Sequence record: MZ726792.1
From: Escherichia phage vB_EcoM_ASO1B
Length of the DNA: 64,000 nt
Reading direction: 5' to 3' (one strand)
Under the pieces are notes generated by a model. That model made no database searches. It saw only the letters and a list, made by a program, of their open reading frames with translations, and was not told where the DNA came from. The stretch's first letter is position 1; the number at the start of each line of letters is the position of its first letter. Positions 24,908-27,575 of the stretch are shown piece by piece. Made by a program: the position numbers and the translations under genes.

Positions 24908-26323
24908 ATGAGCGAATTATTTAAACATGCGCACCTTCATGCAGGTCGAACTGAAAATGGTGCTGTAAACCATACTTCATCAATGTCTGCTCTTGTAGAC
25001 TTTTACAAAGCTGCTGGTTCTAGCCGTAGCAATGTAGAAATCTTACCAGACTTGTTCTACAAAGCTTTGCATGAGGATGTTGATGTTGCAGTTCGTATTT
25101 TACTGCATATGCGAGATGTACGAGAAGGTATGGGTGAGCGTAAAGCTTTCCGAACTGTTTTACTTCAAGCGATTGAAGATAAAGTTTTAGAGCCTACGCA
25201 GGTTCTTCGCATTATGGATAAGATTGCAGAGCTTGGTCGCTTTGATGACTTCAAAATCTTTGTAGGTACTCGTTTCGAGACAGATGCCTTCAAACATTTA
25301 GAAGCAGCTTTACTAGACCCTGCAACAGCAGGTTTAGCAGCTAAGTGGTTACCACGAGTAAAACCACGTCACAAACAGTTTGTAAAACGTTTCTGCAAGT
25401 TTGCAAACTTGAGTGAGAAAGAGTATCGCACACTGTTGTCTGCACTATCTGATACAGTTGAGCAAAAAATCTCTGCTAATGAGTTTGGTAAGATTGACTA
25501 CAGTAAGATTCCTTCACTTGCTGCTGCACGTTACCAAAAACTGTTTAACCGTAAAGATGGAGAACGCTACAAAGCTTACATCGAGTCATTATCAAAGGGT
25601 GAGACTAAGATTAATGCTGGTGCTGTTTACCCATACGATGTGATTAAATCTGTTAAGTATGGTAATGCAGATGTTGCTAATGAGCAGTGGAAAGCACTAC
25701 CAAACTGGATGGCAGAAGGTGAAAACATCTTGTGTATGACTGATGTTTCAAGCTCAATGTCTTGGGTGAATTTTGGTTCAATCACTGCACTTGATATTGG
25801 TGTATCACTTGCCTTGTATGTAGCAGAACGCAATACAGGTTGCTTTAAGAACGAGTTAATGGTTTATTCAACAAACCCTCATTTCATCGAACTGAGTGGT
25901 GATTTACGAAACCGTCATCGTCAGGTGATGCGACACGTTGAATATGGCTCAACTAACTTACAAGCAGCCTTTGACCGCATTCTTGAGACAGGTAAAAGAA
26001 ATAACTTGACTCAGAAAGATATGCCAAGTAAGCTTATCATCTTCTCCGATATGGAGTTCAATCAGGTTGATGGAGCTAACGGTCGTACAAACTTTGAAGC
26101 AATTCAGAGTAAGTACAAAAAAGCTGGATATGAGATGCCACAACTGGTATTCTGGTACTTAGCAAACCGTAATGGCACTTGCGAAGTGTCTGTTAAGGAT
26201 AACGGTGTAGCAATGGTATCTGGTTTTTCTCCAGCTACTTTAAAAGCTCTGCTTGGTGGTGAGAAGTTTGACCCAATCAGCGTAATGCTCAAAGCAGTAA
26301 TGATTGACCGTTATATCTGGTAA
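24908..26323 (+). CDS. vWA-domain protein with MIDAS motif; N-terminal helical domain possibly TROVE/Ro60-like
   Basis: 471 aa; DVSSSMS (DxSxS MIDAS) near residue 280 followed by vWA-like C-terminus; N-terminal TENGAV...LVDFY block; positioned immediately 5' of tRNA array. Confidence 0.45.
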   Translation: MSELFKHAHLHAGRTENGAVNHTSSMSALVDFYKAAGSSRSNVEILPDLFYKALHEDVDVAVRILLHMRDVREGMGERKAFRTVLLQAIEDKVLEPTQVLRIMDKIAELGRFDDFKIFVGTRFETDAFKHLEAALLDPATAGLAAKWLPRVKPRHKQFVKRFCKFANLSEKEYRTLLSALSDTVEQKISANEFGKIDYSKIPSLAAARYQKLFNRKDGERYKAYIESLSKGETKINAGAVYPYDVIKSVKYGNADVANEQWKALPNWMAEGENILCMTDVSSSMSWVNFGSITALDIGVSLALYVAERNTGCFKNELMVYSTNPHFIELSGDLRNRHRQVMRHVEYGSTNLQAAFDRILETGKRNNLTQKDMPSKLIIFSDMEFNQVDGANGRTNFEAIQSKYKKAGYEMPQLVFWYLANRNGTCEVSVKDNGVAMVSGFSPATLKALLGGEKFDPISVMLKAVMIDRYIW

Positions 26324-26341
26324 AAAGTTTTAAAAAGGGTA

Positions 26342-26370
26342 TTGACAATGTGTTTGATACCCTTTAATAT
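26342..26370 (+). promoter_or_regulatory. sigma70-like promoter (TTGACA-17-TAATAT) ahead of tRNA array
   Basis: -35 26342-26347, -10 26365-26370; a second TTGACA at ~26432. Confidence 0.55.
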
Positions 26371-26488
26371 GTTCTACATAGAAACGAAACGAGAGCTTTT
26401 CTAAGATACTGAAAAATATTTTAAAAAAGTTCTTGACAATCACTAAAAAATAATGTTAAAGTGGTTACATAGAGTTTGAAAAGTTTAT

Positions 26489-26565
26489 CTCTGTTTAGCT
26501 CAGCTTGGTAGAGCGTTCCGTTTGGGGCGGTAAGGCCGGAGGTTCAAGTCCTCCAACAGAGACCA
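26489..26565 (+). tRNA. tRNA-Pro (anticodon TGG)
   Basis: 7-bp acceptor CTCTGTT/AACAGAG, T-arm GGAGG-TTCAAGT-CCTCC, anticodon loop TTTGGGG, encoded CCA. Confidence 0.7.
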
Positions 26566-26572
26566 AATTAAT

Positions 26573-26650
26573 GTTCCAGTAGACAAAATGGTAAAGTCAC
26601 CACTCTTTCAAAGTGGATATCTGAGGGTTCAAATCCCTTCTGGAACGCCA
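26573..26650 (+). tRNA. tRNA-Glu (anticodon TTC)
   Basis: acceptor GTTCCAG/CTGGAAC, anticodon stem CCACT/AGTGG loop CTTTCAA, T-loop TTCAAAT, CCA. Confidence 0.7.
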
Positions 26651-26657
26651 GTTTTGA

Positions 26658-26729
26658 CAGAAGACCAATTACAGCAAACTTAATCTACTCATCTGACACG
26701 AAATCGGACAAAGAAGATATTTGGTCTGG
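26658..26729 (+). ncRNA. stem-closed module 1 (5' CAGAAGACCAA ... TTGGTCTGG 3')
   Basis: conserved 5' motif CAGAAGACC-N4-ACAGCAA and complementary 3' GGTCTGG; between tRNAs. Confidence 0.35.
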
Positions 26730-26740
26730 TCATTGAGAAT

Positions 26741-26817
26741 TGCGGGTATAGAGAAAGGGCGTCTCACATGTCTCATTAGCATGGTATCGGCAGGTTCGAC
26801 TCCTGCACCCGCCTCCA
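26741..26817 (+). tRNA. tRNA with CAT anticodon (Met or Ile2), U1-C72 mismatch
   Basis: acceptor TGCGGGT/ACCCGCC, D-stem GAGA/TCTC, anticodon stem CATGT/GCATG loop CTCATTA, T-arm GCAGG-TTCGACT-CCTGC, CCA. Confidence 0.55.
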
Positions 26818-26823
26818 ATTTTG

Positions 26824-26883
26824 CAGAAGACCGTATTCAGCAACAAAATACTTTTTGCGGATAAAAGAAAAAACACGGTCTGG
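26824..26883 (+). ncRNA. stem-closed module 2 (CAGAAGACCGT ... ACGGTCTGG)
   Basis: same terminal motifs as module 1 with compensatory change in closing stem. Confidence 0.35.
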
Positions 26884-26894
26884 CAATGTATTAA

Positions 26895-26971
26895 GGTTAG
26901 GAAGCACATAAGGTATGTGCGGTCGCCTGTTAAGCGAATGGCACAGGGTTCGAATCCCTGACTAACCGCCA
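26895..26971 (+). tRNA. tRNA-Asn (anticodon GTT)
   Basis: acceptor GGTTAGG/ACTAACC, anticodon loop CTGTTAA, T-arm CAGGG-TTCGAAT-CCCTG, CCA. Confidence 0.7.
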
Positions 26972-26980
26972 AATTTAAAT

Positions 26981-27068
26981 GTGTCGTTATCCCGTAGATG
27001 GTAGCGGTGGGGACTGTAAATCCCTTGTCATTGAGACTCGGTAGGTTCGACTCCTACACGGCACACCA
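26981..27068 (+). tRNA. tRNA-Tyr (anticodon GTA), long variable arm
   Basis: acceptor GTGTCGT/ACGGCAC, anticodon stem GGGGA/TCCCT loop CTGTAAA, 88 nt, CCA. Confidence 0.7.
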
Positions 27069-27073
27069 ATAAA

Positions 27074-27151
27074 GGTTATGTAGTTTAATTTGGTTAAAAT
27101 ACTCCCCTGTCACGGGAGATGATGAGGGTTCAAATCCCTTCGTAACCGCCA
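27074..27151 (+). tRNA. tRNA-Asp (anticodon GTC)
   Basis: acceptor GGTTATG/CGTAACC, anticodon stem CTCCC/GGGAG loop CTGTCAC, CCA. Confidence 0.7.
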
Positions 27152-27213
27152 ATTTTGAGAGGGCTATTTAGCCCCTCCCTTAAAGGGTTCTTACGAGTAT
27201 CCTTTAAAGGAGC

Positions 27214-27285
27214 AGAAGACCAAATACAGCAAGAACGTATGAAATTTCAAGCCAATTTAATTTTGAAAATTTAAACTTGGTCTGG
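27214..27285 (+). ncRNA. stem-closed module 3 (CAGAAGACCAA ... TTGGTCTGG)
   Basis: same conserved termini; internal AT-rich palindrome. Confidence 0.35.
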
Positions 27286-27298
27286 CTCAACAAATTTA

Positions 27299-27430
27299 CA
27301 GAAGACCGTTTACAGCAAAACTTAAACAATCTATTTCTCCGGTAAAGAAAAGGCGAAGGTTCGATTCCTTCACTCGGCAGATGTCGAGTTGGTGTAATGG
27401 TAGCACTTAAGATGATAAACAACGGTCTGG
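27299..27430 (+). ncRNA. stem-closed module 4 containing tRNA-like T-arm and D-arm-like segments (Y-RNA-like candidate)
   Basis: CAGAAGACCGTT...AACGGTCTGG closing stem; internal GAAGG-TTCGATT-CCTTC T-arm and AGTTGGTGTAATGGTAGCAC D-arm-like sequence, but no acceptor stem or CCA. Confidence 0.4.
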
Positions 27431-27575
27431 TAATTATCTTTGTAGATAAGTTATTAAGCTTACCTGTGAGTATGCGACCACAAAGGGTGAAAGGGTAAAT
27501 TCTAGATTTAAACCCAAAAAGGCACATCGCTACAGACCTTAAGCAAGTCTGGGTAGCTTATCTACAAAGATAATT
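27431..27575 (+). ncRNA. 19-bp perfect inverted repeat enclosing ~105 nt (long hairpin / processing site)
   Basis: TAATTATCTTTGTAGATAAG at 27431-27450 pairs with CTTATCTACAAAGATAATTA at 27556-27575. Confidence 0.5.

What the first reader, a model, noticed from the sequence alone, without database searches (positions are those of the whole stretch)
24908..27432. vWA/MIDAS protein with possible TROVE-like N-terminus directly upstream of tRNA array containing four conserved stem-closed RNA modules, one with a tRNA-like T-arm (candidate Ro/Y-RNA-type module)
The 471-aa protein has a clear DxSxS MIDAS motif (DVSSSMS) and a helical N-terminal domain, the domain order of Ro60/Rsr and related DUF2828-type proteins. 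Immediately downstream, between canonical tRNAs, four modules (26658-26729, 26824-26883, 27214-27285, 27299-27430) share the 5' motif CAGAAGACC-N4-ACAGCAA and a complementary 3' GGTCTGG, with compensatory AA/TT versus GT/AC changes in the closing stem. Module 4 encloses a perfect T-arm (GAAGG-TTCGATT-CCTTC) and a D-arm-like AGTTGGTGTAATGGTAGCAC but no acceptor stem. Bacterial Y RNAs that bind Rsr have this kind of tRNA-mimicking domain closed by a conserved helix, so a phage Ro-like RNP is a plausible reading.
Basis: partly seen in the sequence, partly recalled or inferred. Interest (0 to 1): 0.8.

Follow-up and report, generated by a model that had tools for sequence, protein, structure and literature searches.

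The report
Phage Ro60-like protein with Y-like RNAs
A Felix-O1-type phage encodes a ring-shaped Ro60-like RNA-binding protein (already reported to counter the Ppl bacterial defence) and, hidden between its tRNA genes, four unannotated small RNAs that carry a conserved "handle" found next to this protein family in phages of very different bacteria.

Summary
The window is a Felixounavirus. ORF 24908-26323 (DUF2828+DUF7788, complete MIDAS) has no sequence-level TROVE match. Its AlphaFold model, however, hits only full-length Ro60/Rsr structures at the top of a PDB search. It is 98% identical to Bas63 gp130, which a 2024 preprint reported as Ro60-like and a counter of the Ppl defence.

All four modules share one frame: A-G-helix, 3 nt, CAGCAA, variable insert, helix, C-U-G. 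In 88 DUF2828 loci from other phages this frame, in the exact register G-N8-CAGCAA, occurs 143 times on the gene strand and once on the other. The hits lie within about 1.3 kb of the gene, including 24 loci without tRNAs, and the helix covaries.

M4 carries a permuted tRNA-like domain (T-arm, closed acceptor hairpin, D-arm), the YrlA topology. A model built only from unrelated phages finds it at E 4e-12.

This is a new variant of the Ro60/Y-RNA kind, with CAGCAA in place of GNCGAA. The frame also resembles Dictyostelium Class I RNAs, an untested lead. Protein-RNA binding is inferred, not shown.

The parts
24839..24868 (+). sigma-70-like promoter upstream of the Ro60-like gene (TTGACA-18-TAAAGT)
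   Evidence: This is a consensus match only; the count of such sites in the region does not exceed the shuffles.
24908..26323 (+). Ro60-like protein (DUF2828 helical ring domain plus DUF7788/vWA with complete MIDAS); ortholog of Bas63 gp130
   Evidence: 98% identical to bas63_0130. The preprint 10.1101/2024.10.10.617714 reports it as a Ppl counter.
26342..26462 (+). two sigma-70-like promoters (26342-26370, 26433-26462) ahead of the tRNA/RNA-module array
   Evidence: consensus matches.
26656..26731 (+). M1, a short Y-like RNA: outer helix GAC/GUC, AGA/G loop, helix AGACCAA/UUGGUCU, UUACAGCAA, 41-nt variable part
   Evidence: model R1 36.5 bits, E 9e-6; weak Rfam RF01414 hit, 17.5 bits.
26822..26885 (+). 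M2, a short Y-like RNA: UGC/GCA outer helix, AGACCGU/ACGGUCU, AUUCAGCAA
   Evidence: R1 31.2 bits, E 1.4e-4; RF01414 24 bits, E 0.07.
27212..27287 (+). M3, a short Y-like RNA: GC/GC outer helix, AGACCAA/UUGGUCU, AUACAGCAA
   Evidence: R1 28.9 bits, E 5e-4.
27297..27432 (+). M4, a long Y-like RNA. It has the same frame (UAC/GUA, AGACCGUU/AACGGUCU, UACAGCAA) enclosing a V-like hairpin (27334-27350), T-arm 27355-27371, closed acceptor hairpin 27372-27389, U-G, and D-arm 27392-27406.
   Evidence: Model R2, built only from non-Ounavirinae phages, gives 42.4 bits, E 3.6e-12 at 27351-27409. Compensatory changes occur in the acceptor and V stems in Moogle/SUSP1.
27432..27579 (+). adjacent 148-nt structured RNA of unknown role (23-bp terminal stem; contains hairpin CAGACC-UUAAGCAA-GUCUGG); possibly part of the same RNA set
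   Evidence: Fold z -6.4. In five Ounavirinae, 8 of 47 consensus pairs have compensatory changes.

Best explanation
The locus encodes a phage Ro60-type ribonucleoprotein system. The 471-aa protein is a Ro60-like ring (helical-repeat domain plus vWA/MIDAS).

M1-M4 are its cognate Y-like RNAs. They are co-transcribed with the first tRNA block from promoters at about 26342 and 26433 and released when the flanking tRNAs are processed.

Each RNA presents a common protein-binding handle. This handle is a terminal helix starting A-G.../...C-U, a 3-nt spacer with a near-invariant U, the single-stranded CAGCAA at a fixed distance from the helix end (G-N8-CAGCAA), and a 3' G.

The handle carries a variable effector part. 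In M1-M3 this is a short A/U-rich insert. In M4 it is a tRNA top-half mimic (T-arm, closed acceptor helix, D-arm) that could engage tRNA-binding factors or nucleases, as bacterial YrlA does.

Shown here: the protein fold class, the RNA family, its covariation, its genetic coupling to the protein, and the tRNA-like architecture. Shown by others: the Bas63 ortholog counters the Ppl defence. Inferred: direct binding, processing into stable RNAs, and what the RNP does, which may be re-routing host RNA decay or tRNA surveillance, or acting as a decoy during counter-defence.
For: Protein:
- The Foldseek top 12 are all Ro60, Rsr or phiLo Ro60, from a model with pLDDT 89.5.
- Homologs occur in 709 phage records and are annotated 'Ro-like RNA binding protein' in mycobacteriophages.
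- The protein is 98% identical to Bas63 gp130, reported as Ro60-like and a Ppl counter.

RNA frame:
- There are 4 exact copies in the window.
- In 88 DUF2828 loci the register-9 frame gives 143 hits on the gene strand against 1 on the opposite strand. Registers 7, 8, 10 and 11 give 0-11 hits, evenly split between strands.
- 63 of 88 loci have at least one hit.
- Hits lie a median of 195 nt upstream or 518 nt downstream of the gene.
- They are present in 24 of 46 loci with no tRNA.
- All four Watson-Crick pair types occur at helix positions 2-6.
- The A:U pair flanking the G:C, whose 5' base was left free in the search, is AU 62, UA 10, GU 1 and unpaired 4.
- Model R1 gives 39 hits in 69 loci, all on the gene strand.
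- The frame is present in LeBron, FBKp34, LAh_6, CP81 and List-36; 6ec and PBC2 carry it with a helix 1 bp shorter.

M4:
- R2 gives E 3.6e-12.
- 18 of 41 long modules carry a T-arm, against 0 of 76 short ones.
- Acceptor hairpins all differ in sequence and are complementary.
- YrlA hits (E about 1e-5) fall on the FBKp34 and LeBron long modules.

Context: RtcB, Rnl2 and phosphoesterases lie nearby in other phages.
Against: - No binding, expression or processing data exist for M1-M4.
- Single-sequence fold energies are unremarkable.
- M4 itself does not hit Rfam YrlA or Y_RNA even at E<=10.
- The YrlA GNCGAA motif is absent.
- There is no sequence-level TROVE match.
- 25 of 88 loci lack a strict module.
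- In the preprint, gp130 expressed alone from a plasmid or from T7 restored T7 growth on Ppl cells. The phage RNAs are therefore not needed for that activity, or host RNAs substitute.
- Helix pairs 1-6 were a selection criterion of my scan, so their percentage paired is circular.
Confidence: 0.7

Rival explanations
1. The modules are cis-acting elements rather than stable trans-acting RNAs. They could be operator sites through which the protein autoregulates its own or neighbouring transcripts, or processing and stability elements of the tRNA operon.
For: In several phages a short module sits directly at or over the start of the DUF2828 gene (L024/L025 3966-4007 with the gene at 4001; L031 3951-3986; L064/L071 3905-3943). 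In the window the modules lie inside a tRNA transcription unit.
Against: In the window none lies in the gene's own 5' UTR. Loci carry 3-7 tandem copies. Long versions carry elaborate tRNA-like or other domains with covariation. Modules occur without tRNAs. The known Ro60 partners YrlA and YrlB are stable RNAs encoded in the same way (PMC4201824).
Confidence: 0.12
2. The RNAs work independently of the protein, for example as tRNA-like decoys or sponges for host tRNA-targeting nucleases, and are merely co-located with the gene in a shared 'RNA conflict' island.
For: gp130 alone suffices against Ppl in T7 infection. The loci often hold tRNAs, tmRNA, RtcB, Rnl2 and phosphoesterases.
Against: An invariant sequence handle at a fixed register, shared by RNAs with unrelated inserts, and 143:1 co-orientation next to one protein family across phyla are what a common protein-binding site predicts. 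The short modules have no tRNA-like part (0 of 76).
Confidence: 0.12
3. The modules are decayed tRNA genes or duplicated spacer repeats without function.
For: They sit in a tRNA array. One genome record annotates a 131-nt 'tRNA-Thr' across M3/M4.
Against: The frame is conserved between phages of different bacterial phyla, with compensatory changes. The permuted order with a closed acceptor hairpin cannot arise by simple decay. The frame is strictly strand- and register-specific.
Confidence: 0.03

Closest known systems
Bacterial/phage Ro60 (Rsr) with YrlA/YrlB Y RNAs (Chen et al. 2014, PMC4201824; Thermus phage phiLo Ro60-Yrl1/2, PMC12135203)
   Same: A ring-plus-vWA protein. Several small RNAs are encoded within a few hundred bases on the same strand. 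The RNAs are modular, with a terminal protein-binding helix plus an effector domain. One RNA carries a permuted tRNA-like domain (T-arm, closed acceptor stem, D-arm). RNA-repair genes lie nearby in some genomes.
   Different: The protein belongs to the DUF2828/DUF7788 families, with no TROVE sequence match. The RNA handle is A-G-helix/N3/CAGCAA...C-U-G instead of the GNCGAA(N)G motif. M4 fails the Rfam YrlA model. Most partner RNAs are very short (about 40-70 nt). In this phage they are embedded in a tRNA array.
Bas63 gp130 (PhageMaP preprint, 10.1101/2024.10.10.617714)
   Same: It is the same protein (98% identity, same position directly upstream of tRNA-Pro). The preprint notes structural similarity to Ro60, shows that it counters the Ppl defence, and shows it to be transferable to T7. 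The authors guessed that Y RNAs might hide among the tRNA genes.
   Different: The preprint did not identify the RNAs. They are not among the annotated tRNAs but in the gaps between them. In Bas63, M4 and the 148-nt element lie under minus-strand 'hypothetical' ORFs 0137/0138.
Dictyostelium Class I RNAs (Rfam RF01414; Kjellin et al. 2021, PMC7919456)
   Same: These RNAs are 42-65 nt long and multi-copy. The terminal helix has an invariant 5' G, preceded by A. (C)CUUACAGCAA lies directly 3' of the 5' strand, with an invariant U and CAA. The middle is variable and A-rich. The 3' end reads ...C-U-G(U). Rare long variants exist.
   Different: They are eukaryotic, with the spacer 1 nt longer (G-N9-CAGCAA). 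No phage RNA reaches the Rfam gathering score; the best is 29.6 against 41.5 bits. The published direct binder is the RRM protein Rnp1A. Whether Dictyostelium has a DUF2828 protein could not be checked here.

Membership tests
Ro60/Rsr protein family | Ring of helical (HEAT-like) repeats followed by a vWA domain with MIDAS | tested here: met
   AF2 model with pLDDT 89.5. The Foldseek PDB top 12 are all full-length Ro60, Rsr or phiLo Ro60, E 3e-8 to 2e-6, TM 0.5-0.66 over about 520 columns. MIDAS residues D279, S281, S283, T349 and D381 are invariant.
Ro60/Rsr protein family | Sequence match to the Pfam TROVE domain or to solved Ro60 sequences | tested here: not met
   Pfam gives only DUF2828 and DUF7788 at E<=1. 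phmmer and profile searches of PDB sequences give Ro60 only at E about 1, over the MIDAS stretch.
Ro60/Rsr protein family | Binds Y RNA through a conserved helix | not testable with these tools
   Only genetic coupling was shown.
YrlA (Rfam RF02553) | Score at or above the Rfam gathering threshold (69 bits) | tested here: not met
   M4 gives no YrlA hit at E<=10. The FBKp34 and LeBron relatives score 39.6 and 39.8 bits, E about 1e-5.
YrlA (Rfam RF02553) | tRNA-like domain: T-arm, acceptor-like stem closed by a loop, D-arm, with the RNA ends in the protein-binding stem | tested here: met
   Model R2 from unrelated phages gives 42.4 bits, E 3.6e-12, with all three helices aligned.
YrlA (Rfam RF02553) | Encoded within 4 kb of, and on the same strand as, the Ro60 gene | tested here: met
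   M4 starts 974 nt after the stop codon, on the + strand.
YrlA (Rfam RF02553) | 5' GNCGAA(N0-1)G motif (proposed Rsr contact) | tested here: not met
   It is replaced by U-N-CAGCAA at a fixed register. The YrlA model aligns only the tRNA-like part of LeBron's RNA.
Dictyostelium Class I RNA (Rfam RF01414) | Score at or above the gathering threshold (41.5 bits) | tested here: not met
   M2 scores 24.0 and M1 17.5 bits. The best phage RNA scores 29.6 bits. None pass in 16 loci.
Dictyostelium Class I RNA (Rfam RF01414) | Short terminal stem with invariant 5' G, the 11-nt motif CCUUACAGCAA next to it, and an ...CUGU end | tested here: inconclusive
   All elements are present, but the spacer is 1 nt shorter. 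A sequence-only profile test was underpowered.

The most novel reading that the evidence does not exclude
The CAGCAA-handle RNAs would be the general partner RNAs of the DUF2828 branch of Ro60-like proteins. As I recall the Pfam entry, that family is also found in eukaryotes; the paper search only turned up DUF2828 mentions in plant and tardigrade studies. Dictyostelium Class I RNAs share the helix, the UUACAGCAA motif and the CUG end, and their function has been open since 2004. They would then be eukaryotic members of the same RNP, perhaps bound by the uncharacterised pull-down protein DDB_G0281243 or another DUF2828 protein.
Probability: 0.3. Interest if true: 0.9.

Novelty: new variant of a known kind. 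Interest (0 to 1): 0.72.

Why it matters
Ro60/Y-RNA particles are known from animals, about 5% of bacteria and a few phages. Here a second, sequence-divergent branch of the protein, found in over 700 phage genomes, gets a defined family of partner RNAs with its own recognition handle.

These RNAs are unannotated, or covered by spurious ORFs and pseudo-tRNA calls, in hundreds of Felix-O1-like genomes used in phage therapy and biocontrol.

The protein is already linked by experiment to escape from the Ppl defence. Knowing the RNAs therefore makes the mechanism directly testable: does the counter-defence need the RNP, and does the tRNA mimic recruit or decoy a host factor?

The handle also gives a simple search key for finding such RNAs elsewhere. 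It suggests a concrete hypothesis for the unexplained Dictyostelium Class I RNAs and for eukaryotic DUF2828 proteins.

Tried and rejected
- An Rfam scan of the region found no Y_RNA or YrlA hit for M1-M4.
- phmmer and profile searches of PDB sequences were not significant for Ro60.
- NCBIfam gave no match.
- Single-sequence folding z-scores were uninformative.
- My first stem scanner was too permissive, because almost every CAGCAA finds a 6-bp partner. I replaced it with a register-fixed scan.
- Extra strict-scan hits elsewhere in the window (12150, 30960, 35137, 38401, 42182, 45090, 54467) were not confirmed by model R1, and I treat them as chance.
- R1 with filters off gave degraded scores and no new modules.
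- R1 cannot span M4's 95-nt insert, hence the separate model R2.
- The Rfam gathering threshold for Dicty_Class_I was not reached by any phage RNA.
- An nhmmer test of the phage 5' frame against Dictyostelium sequences was underpowered: 14 of 16 real against 1.7% of shuffled sequences were detected, but with overlapping scores.
- The AlphaFold-database fold library was unavailable.
- The DDB_G0281243 sequence could not be obtained from papers or supplements.
- No paper held links DUF2828 or Class I RNAs to Ro60 or Y RNAs.
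Full report
**Identity of the window**

The region is 96-99% identical to Felixounavirus genomes (wV8, Alf5, ASO1A; 313 phage records match). The gene order DUF5681 gene, 471-aa gene, tRNA array is conserved in Felixounavirus, Mooglevirus and Suspvirus. 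ARAGORN finds 25 tRNAs at 26489-31640, all on the + strand.

**The protein**

- ORF 24908-26323 matches Pfam DUF2828 (E 4e-29) and DUF7788 (E 2e-43) and nothing else. There is no TROVE hit.
- It belongs to PHROG 850, 'RNA-binding protein'.
- Sequence searches against solved structures are not significant. Ro60 appears only at E about 1, over the MIDAS stretch.
- An AlphaFold2 model built from 39 homologs is confident (pLDDT 89.5, pTM 0.89).
- In a Foldseek search of the PDB, its twelve best matches are all full-length Ro60 proteins. These are Xenopus and human Ro60, D. radiodurans Rsr and Thermus phage phiLo Ro60, at E 3e-8 to 2e-6 and TM 0.5-0.66 over about 520 aligned columns. Everything below is an isolated vWA domain at E>1e-3.
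- The MIDAS residues D279, S281, S283, T349 and D381 are invariant.
- The protein is therefore Ro60-like in architecture but belongs to a separate sequence family.
- Homologs occur in 709 phage records. These include Vibrio, Listeria, Staphylococcus, Campylobacter, Enterococcus, Bacillus and Mycobacterium cluster L phages, where curators already write 'Ro-like RNA binding protein'.

**Prior experimental work**

The protein is 98% identical to Bas63 gp130, which occupies the same position. The PhageMaP preprint (10.1101/2024.10.10.617714) reports the following:
- gp130 resembles Ro60 structurally.
- Deleting it cripples Bas63 on cells carrying the Ppl defence (ATPase plus PHP domain).
- gp130 alone, from a plasmid or inserted in T7, rescues T7 on Ppl cells.
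- The authors speculated that some annotated tRNAs might be Y RNAs.

**The four modules**

- AGAAGACC-N5-CAGCAA occurs exactly four times in the window, all on the + strand.
- Each copy pairs with a downstream GGUCU, with AA/UU or GU/AC extensions. Each also has an outer 2-3 bp helix that differs between copies (GAC/GUC, UGC/GCA, GC/GC, UAC/GUA) across an AGA/G internal loop.
- Across Ounavirinae the outer pair covaries. 'ACAGAA' goes with 'UGGU' and 'GCAGAA' with 'UGGC', with G·U intermediates and no A·C combinations.

**A family coupled to the protein**

The same frame turned up by eye next to the homologous gene in four distant phages: Klebsiella phage FBKp34, Aeromonas phage LAh_6, mycobacteriophage LeBron and Campylobacter phage CP81.

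I fetched 80 more loci by protein similarity and scanned all 88 loci. The scan looked for a G, then 8 nt, then CAGCAA. It required a helix of at least 5 bp starting at that G, whose partner C is followed by (U/A)G. The results were:
- 143 hits on the gene's strand and 1 on the other strand.
- Registers of 7, 8, 10 or 11 gave 0-11 hits, evenly split between strands.
- 63 of 88 loci have at least one hit, and there are 117 distinct sequences.
- Hits lie a median of 195 nt upstream or 518 nt downstream of the gene.
- Among 60 non-Ounavirinae loci, modules occur in all 14 with a tRNA or tmRNA gene and in 24 of 46 with none. They are therefore not simply tRNA spacers.
- Helix positions 2-6 use all four Watson-Crick pairs.
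- At the pair just outside the G:C, the 5' base was left free in the scan and the 3' base was limited to U or A. That pair is A:U in 62, U:A in 10, G:U in 1 and unpaired in 4 of 77 sequences.
- A U two bases before CAGCAA is more than 90% conserved.
- A covariance model of the frame (R1) finds only M1-M3 in the 64-kb window (E 9e-6 to 5e-4). It gives 39 hits in 69 loci, all on the gene strand.
- Firmicutes phages carry the same design. Listeria List-36 has three copies just upstream of the gene. Staphylococcus 6ec and Bacillus PBC2 have three each, with a helix 1 bp shorter and a CU(U/A)G end.

**M4 and the long class**

- The modules fall into a short class (76 distinct, 36-80 nt) and a long class (41 distinct, 84-199 nt). 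A canonical T-arm is found in 18 of the long and none of the short modules.
- In the long ones the T-arm is followed directly by three elements: a 7-bp helix closed by a 3-16-nt loop, then U(A/G), then a D-arm with the GG loop.
- The closed helices all differ in sequence and are complementary.
- This is the YrlA topology described by Chen et al. 2014 (PMC4201824).
- A model of this core built only from seven non-Ounavirinae phages (R2) gives M4 (27351-27409) as the top hit in the window, at 42.4 bits and E 3.6e-12 with all helices aligned. The remaining hits are junctions of adjacent tRNAs in which the acceptor helix is skipped.
- Within Ounavirinae, M4's acceptor-like helix changes from ACUCGGC/GUCGAGU to ACCCUUC/GAAGGGU (Moogle) and ACACG/CGUGU (SUSP1).
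- Rfam YrlA hits the FBKp34 and LeBron long modules at 39.6-39.8 bits (E about 1e-5, below the 69-bit threshold). It aligns only their tRNA-like part, and the CAGCAA handle lies outside the model.
- M4 itself gets no YrlA hit.
- Other long modules carry non-permuted tRNA-like bodies or unrelated structured inserts. The handle therefore behaves as a scaffold for different effector domains.

**Mechanism**

Established so far: a Ro60-fold protein, an RNA family with a conserved handle, covariation, tight genetic linkage, and a tRNA-mimic member.

By analogy with Ro60/Y RNA and with phiLo Ro60-Yrl-PNPase (PMC12135203), I infer three things:
- The protein binds the handle.
- The RNAs are released from the tRNA precursor by tRNA processing. 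Promoter-like sites lie at 26342 and 26433.
- The variable parts engage other factors.

What the particle does is open. One caveat is that gp130 alone counters Ppl in T7 infection, so the RNAs are either dispensable for that activity or serve other roles. In some phages a module sits over the gene's start codon, so autoregulation is a possible additional role.

**The Dictyostelium resemblance**

- Rfam's Dicty_Class_I_RNA model weakly hits M2 (24 bits) and M1. It also hits modules in LAh_6 and FBKp34, up to 29.6 bits.
- The published Class I sequences (GUUGAC-CUUA-CAGCAA...GUCAAC-UG) and their described hallmarks match the phage frame apart from a spacer 1 nt longer. Those hallmarks are a start AAG, a 6-bp stem with invariant G, an 11-nt motif with invariant U, C and CAA, and an end CUGU (PMC7919456).
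- No phage RNA reaches the Rfam threshold, and a sequence-only test was underpowered.
- One of four proteins pulled down with Class I RNA DdR-21 is the uncharacterised DDB_G0281243. I could not obtain its sequence.
- No held paper links Class I RNAs to Ro60.
- This is a lead, not a result.

**Verdict**

The protein's Ro60 likeness and its counter-defence role are already in a preprint. The partner RNA family, its CAGCAA handle, its breadth across phages and the identification of M4 as a YrlA-type tRNA mimic appear not to have been described in the literature I could search.

Noticed in passing
window 27432-27579 (+): A 148-nt strongly structured element lies right after M4 (MFE -47.9, z -6.4). 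Its 23-bp terminal stem is kept by compensatory changes in five Ounavirinae. It contains a hairpin CAGACC-UUAAGCAA-GUCUGG that looks like a miniature of the module frame. No Rfam match.
   Followed up: partly
window 27204-27527 (-): A 107-aa minus-strand ORF lies over M3, M4 and the 148-nt element. It is annotated as 'hypothetical protein' in relatives (wV8 gp048; Bas63 0137/0138) and is probably spurious. Phage REP6 instead annotates a 131-nt 'tRNA-Thr' across M3/M4.
   Followed up: partly
window 28063-28141 (+): A tRNA detected by Rfam (31.7 bits) but missed by ARAGORN. The syntenic gene is annotated tRNA-Arg (AGA codon, i.e. anticodon UCU) in Moogle and Bas63. It has an unusually long variable region.
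   Followed up: no
window 27756-28061 (+): Weak sub-threshold hits to permuted tmRNA (29 bits) and tmRNA (16 bits) lie in an unannotated gap that starts with the best promoter match of the region (27830-27858, 11 of 12). The content of this gap is unexplained.
   Followed up: no
L024/L025 3966-4007, L031 3951-3986, L064/L071 3905-3943: In Vibrio KVP40-like and other phages a 36-43-nt module sits immediately before or across the start codon of the DUF2828 gene. This suggests translational autoregulation through the same handle.
   Followed up: no
L091 5810-7021; L006 9070-9353; L007 542-1630; L094 5837-7078; L069 7710-8201: Other DUF2828 loci carry RNA-repair or rescue genes nearby: RtcB 'tRNA splicing ligase' (Listeria List-36), RNA ligase 2 (Aeromonas LAh_6), metallophosphoesterases (LeBron, PBC2) and phage tmRNA genes (L069, L079).
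   Followed up: no
L006 1494-1629; L005 6003-6116: A 117-nt tRNA hit in LAh_6 overlaps a G-N8-CAGCAA module. FBKp34 has a tRNA-Asp with a 51-nt insertion in the anticodon region. These may be tRNA/module hybrids or intron-like insertions.
   Followed up: no
L058 6330-6428; L059 6193-6315; L064/L071/L084/L088 (~163 nt): Some long modules carry a non-permuted D-arm/anticodon-like/T-arm body, with the handle replacing the acceptor stem. Another conserved group carries a different multi-hairpin insert.
   Followed up: partly
window 27152-27211 (+): Two hairpins lie between tRNA-Asp and M3 (gagagggctatttagcccctc and cttaaagggttcttacgagtatcctttaaag). Their function is unknown.
   Followed up: no
window 24455-24826 (+); relatives H6, H7, H18, H19: A DUF5681 gene always precedes the Ro60-like gene in Ounavirinae. 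Several relatives have HNH homing-endonuclease insertions inside this tRNA/RNA-module region.
   Followed up: no
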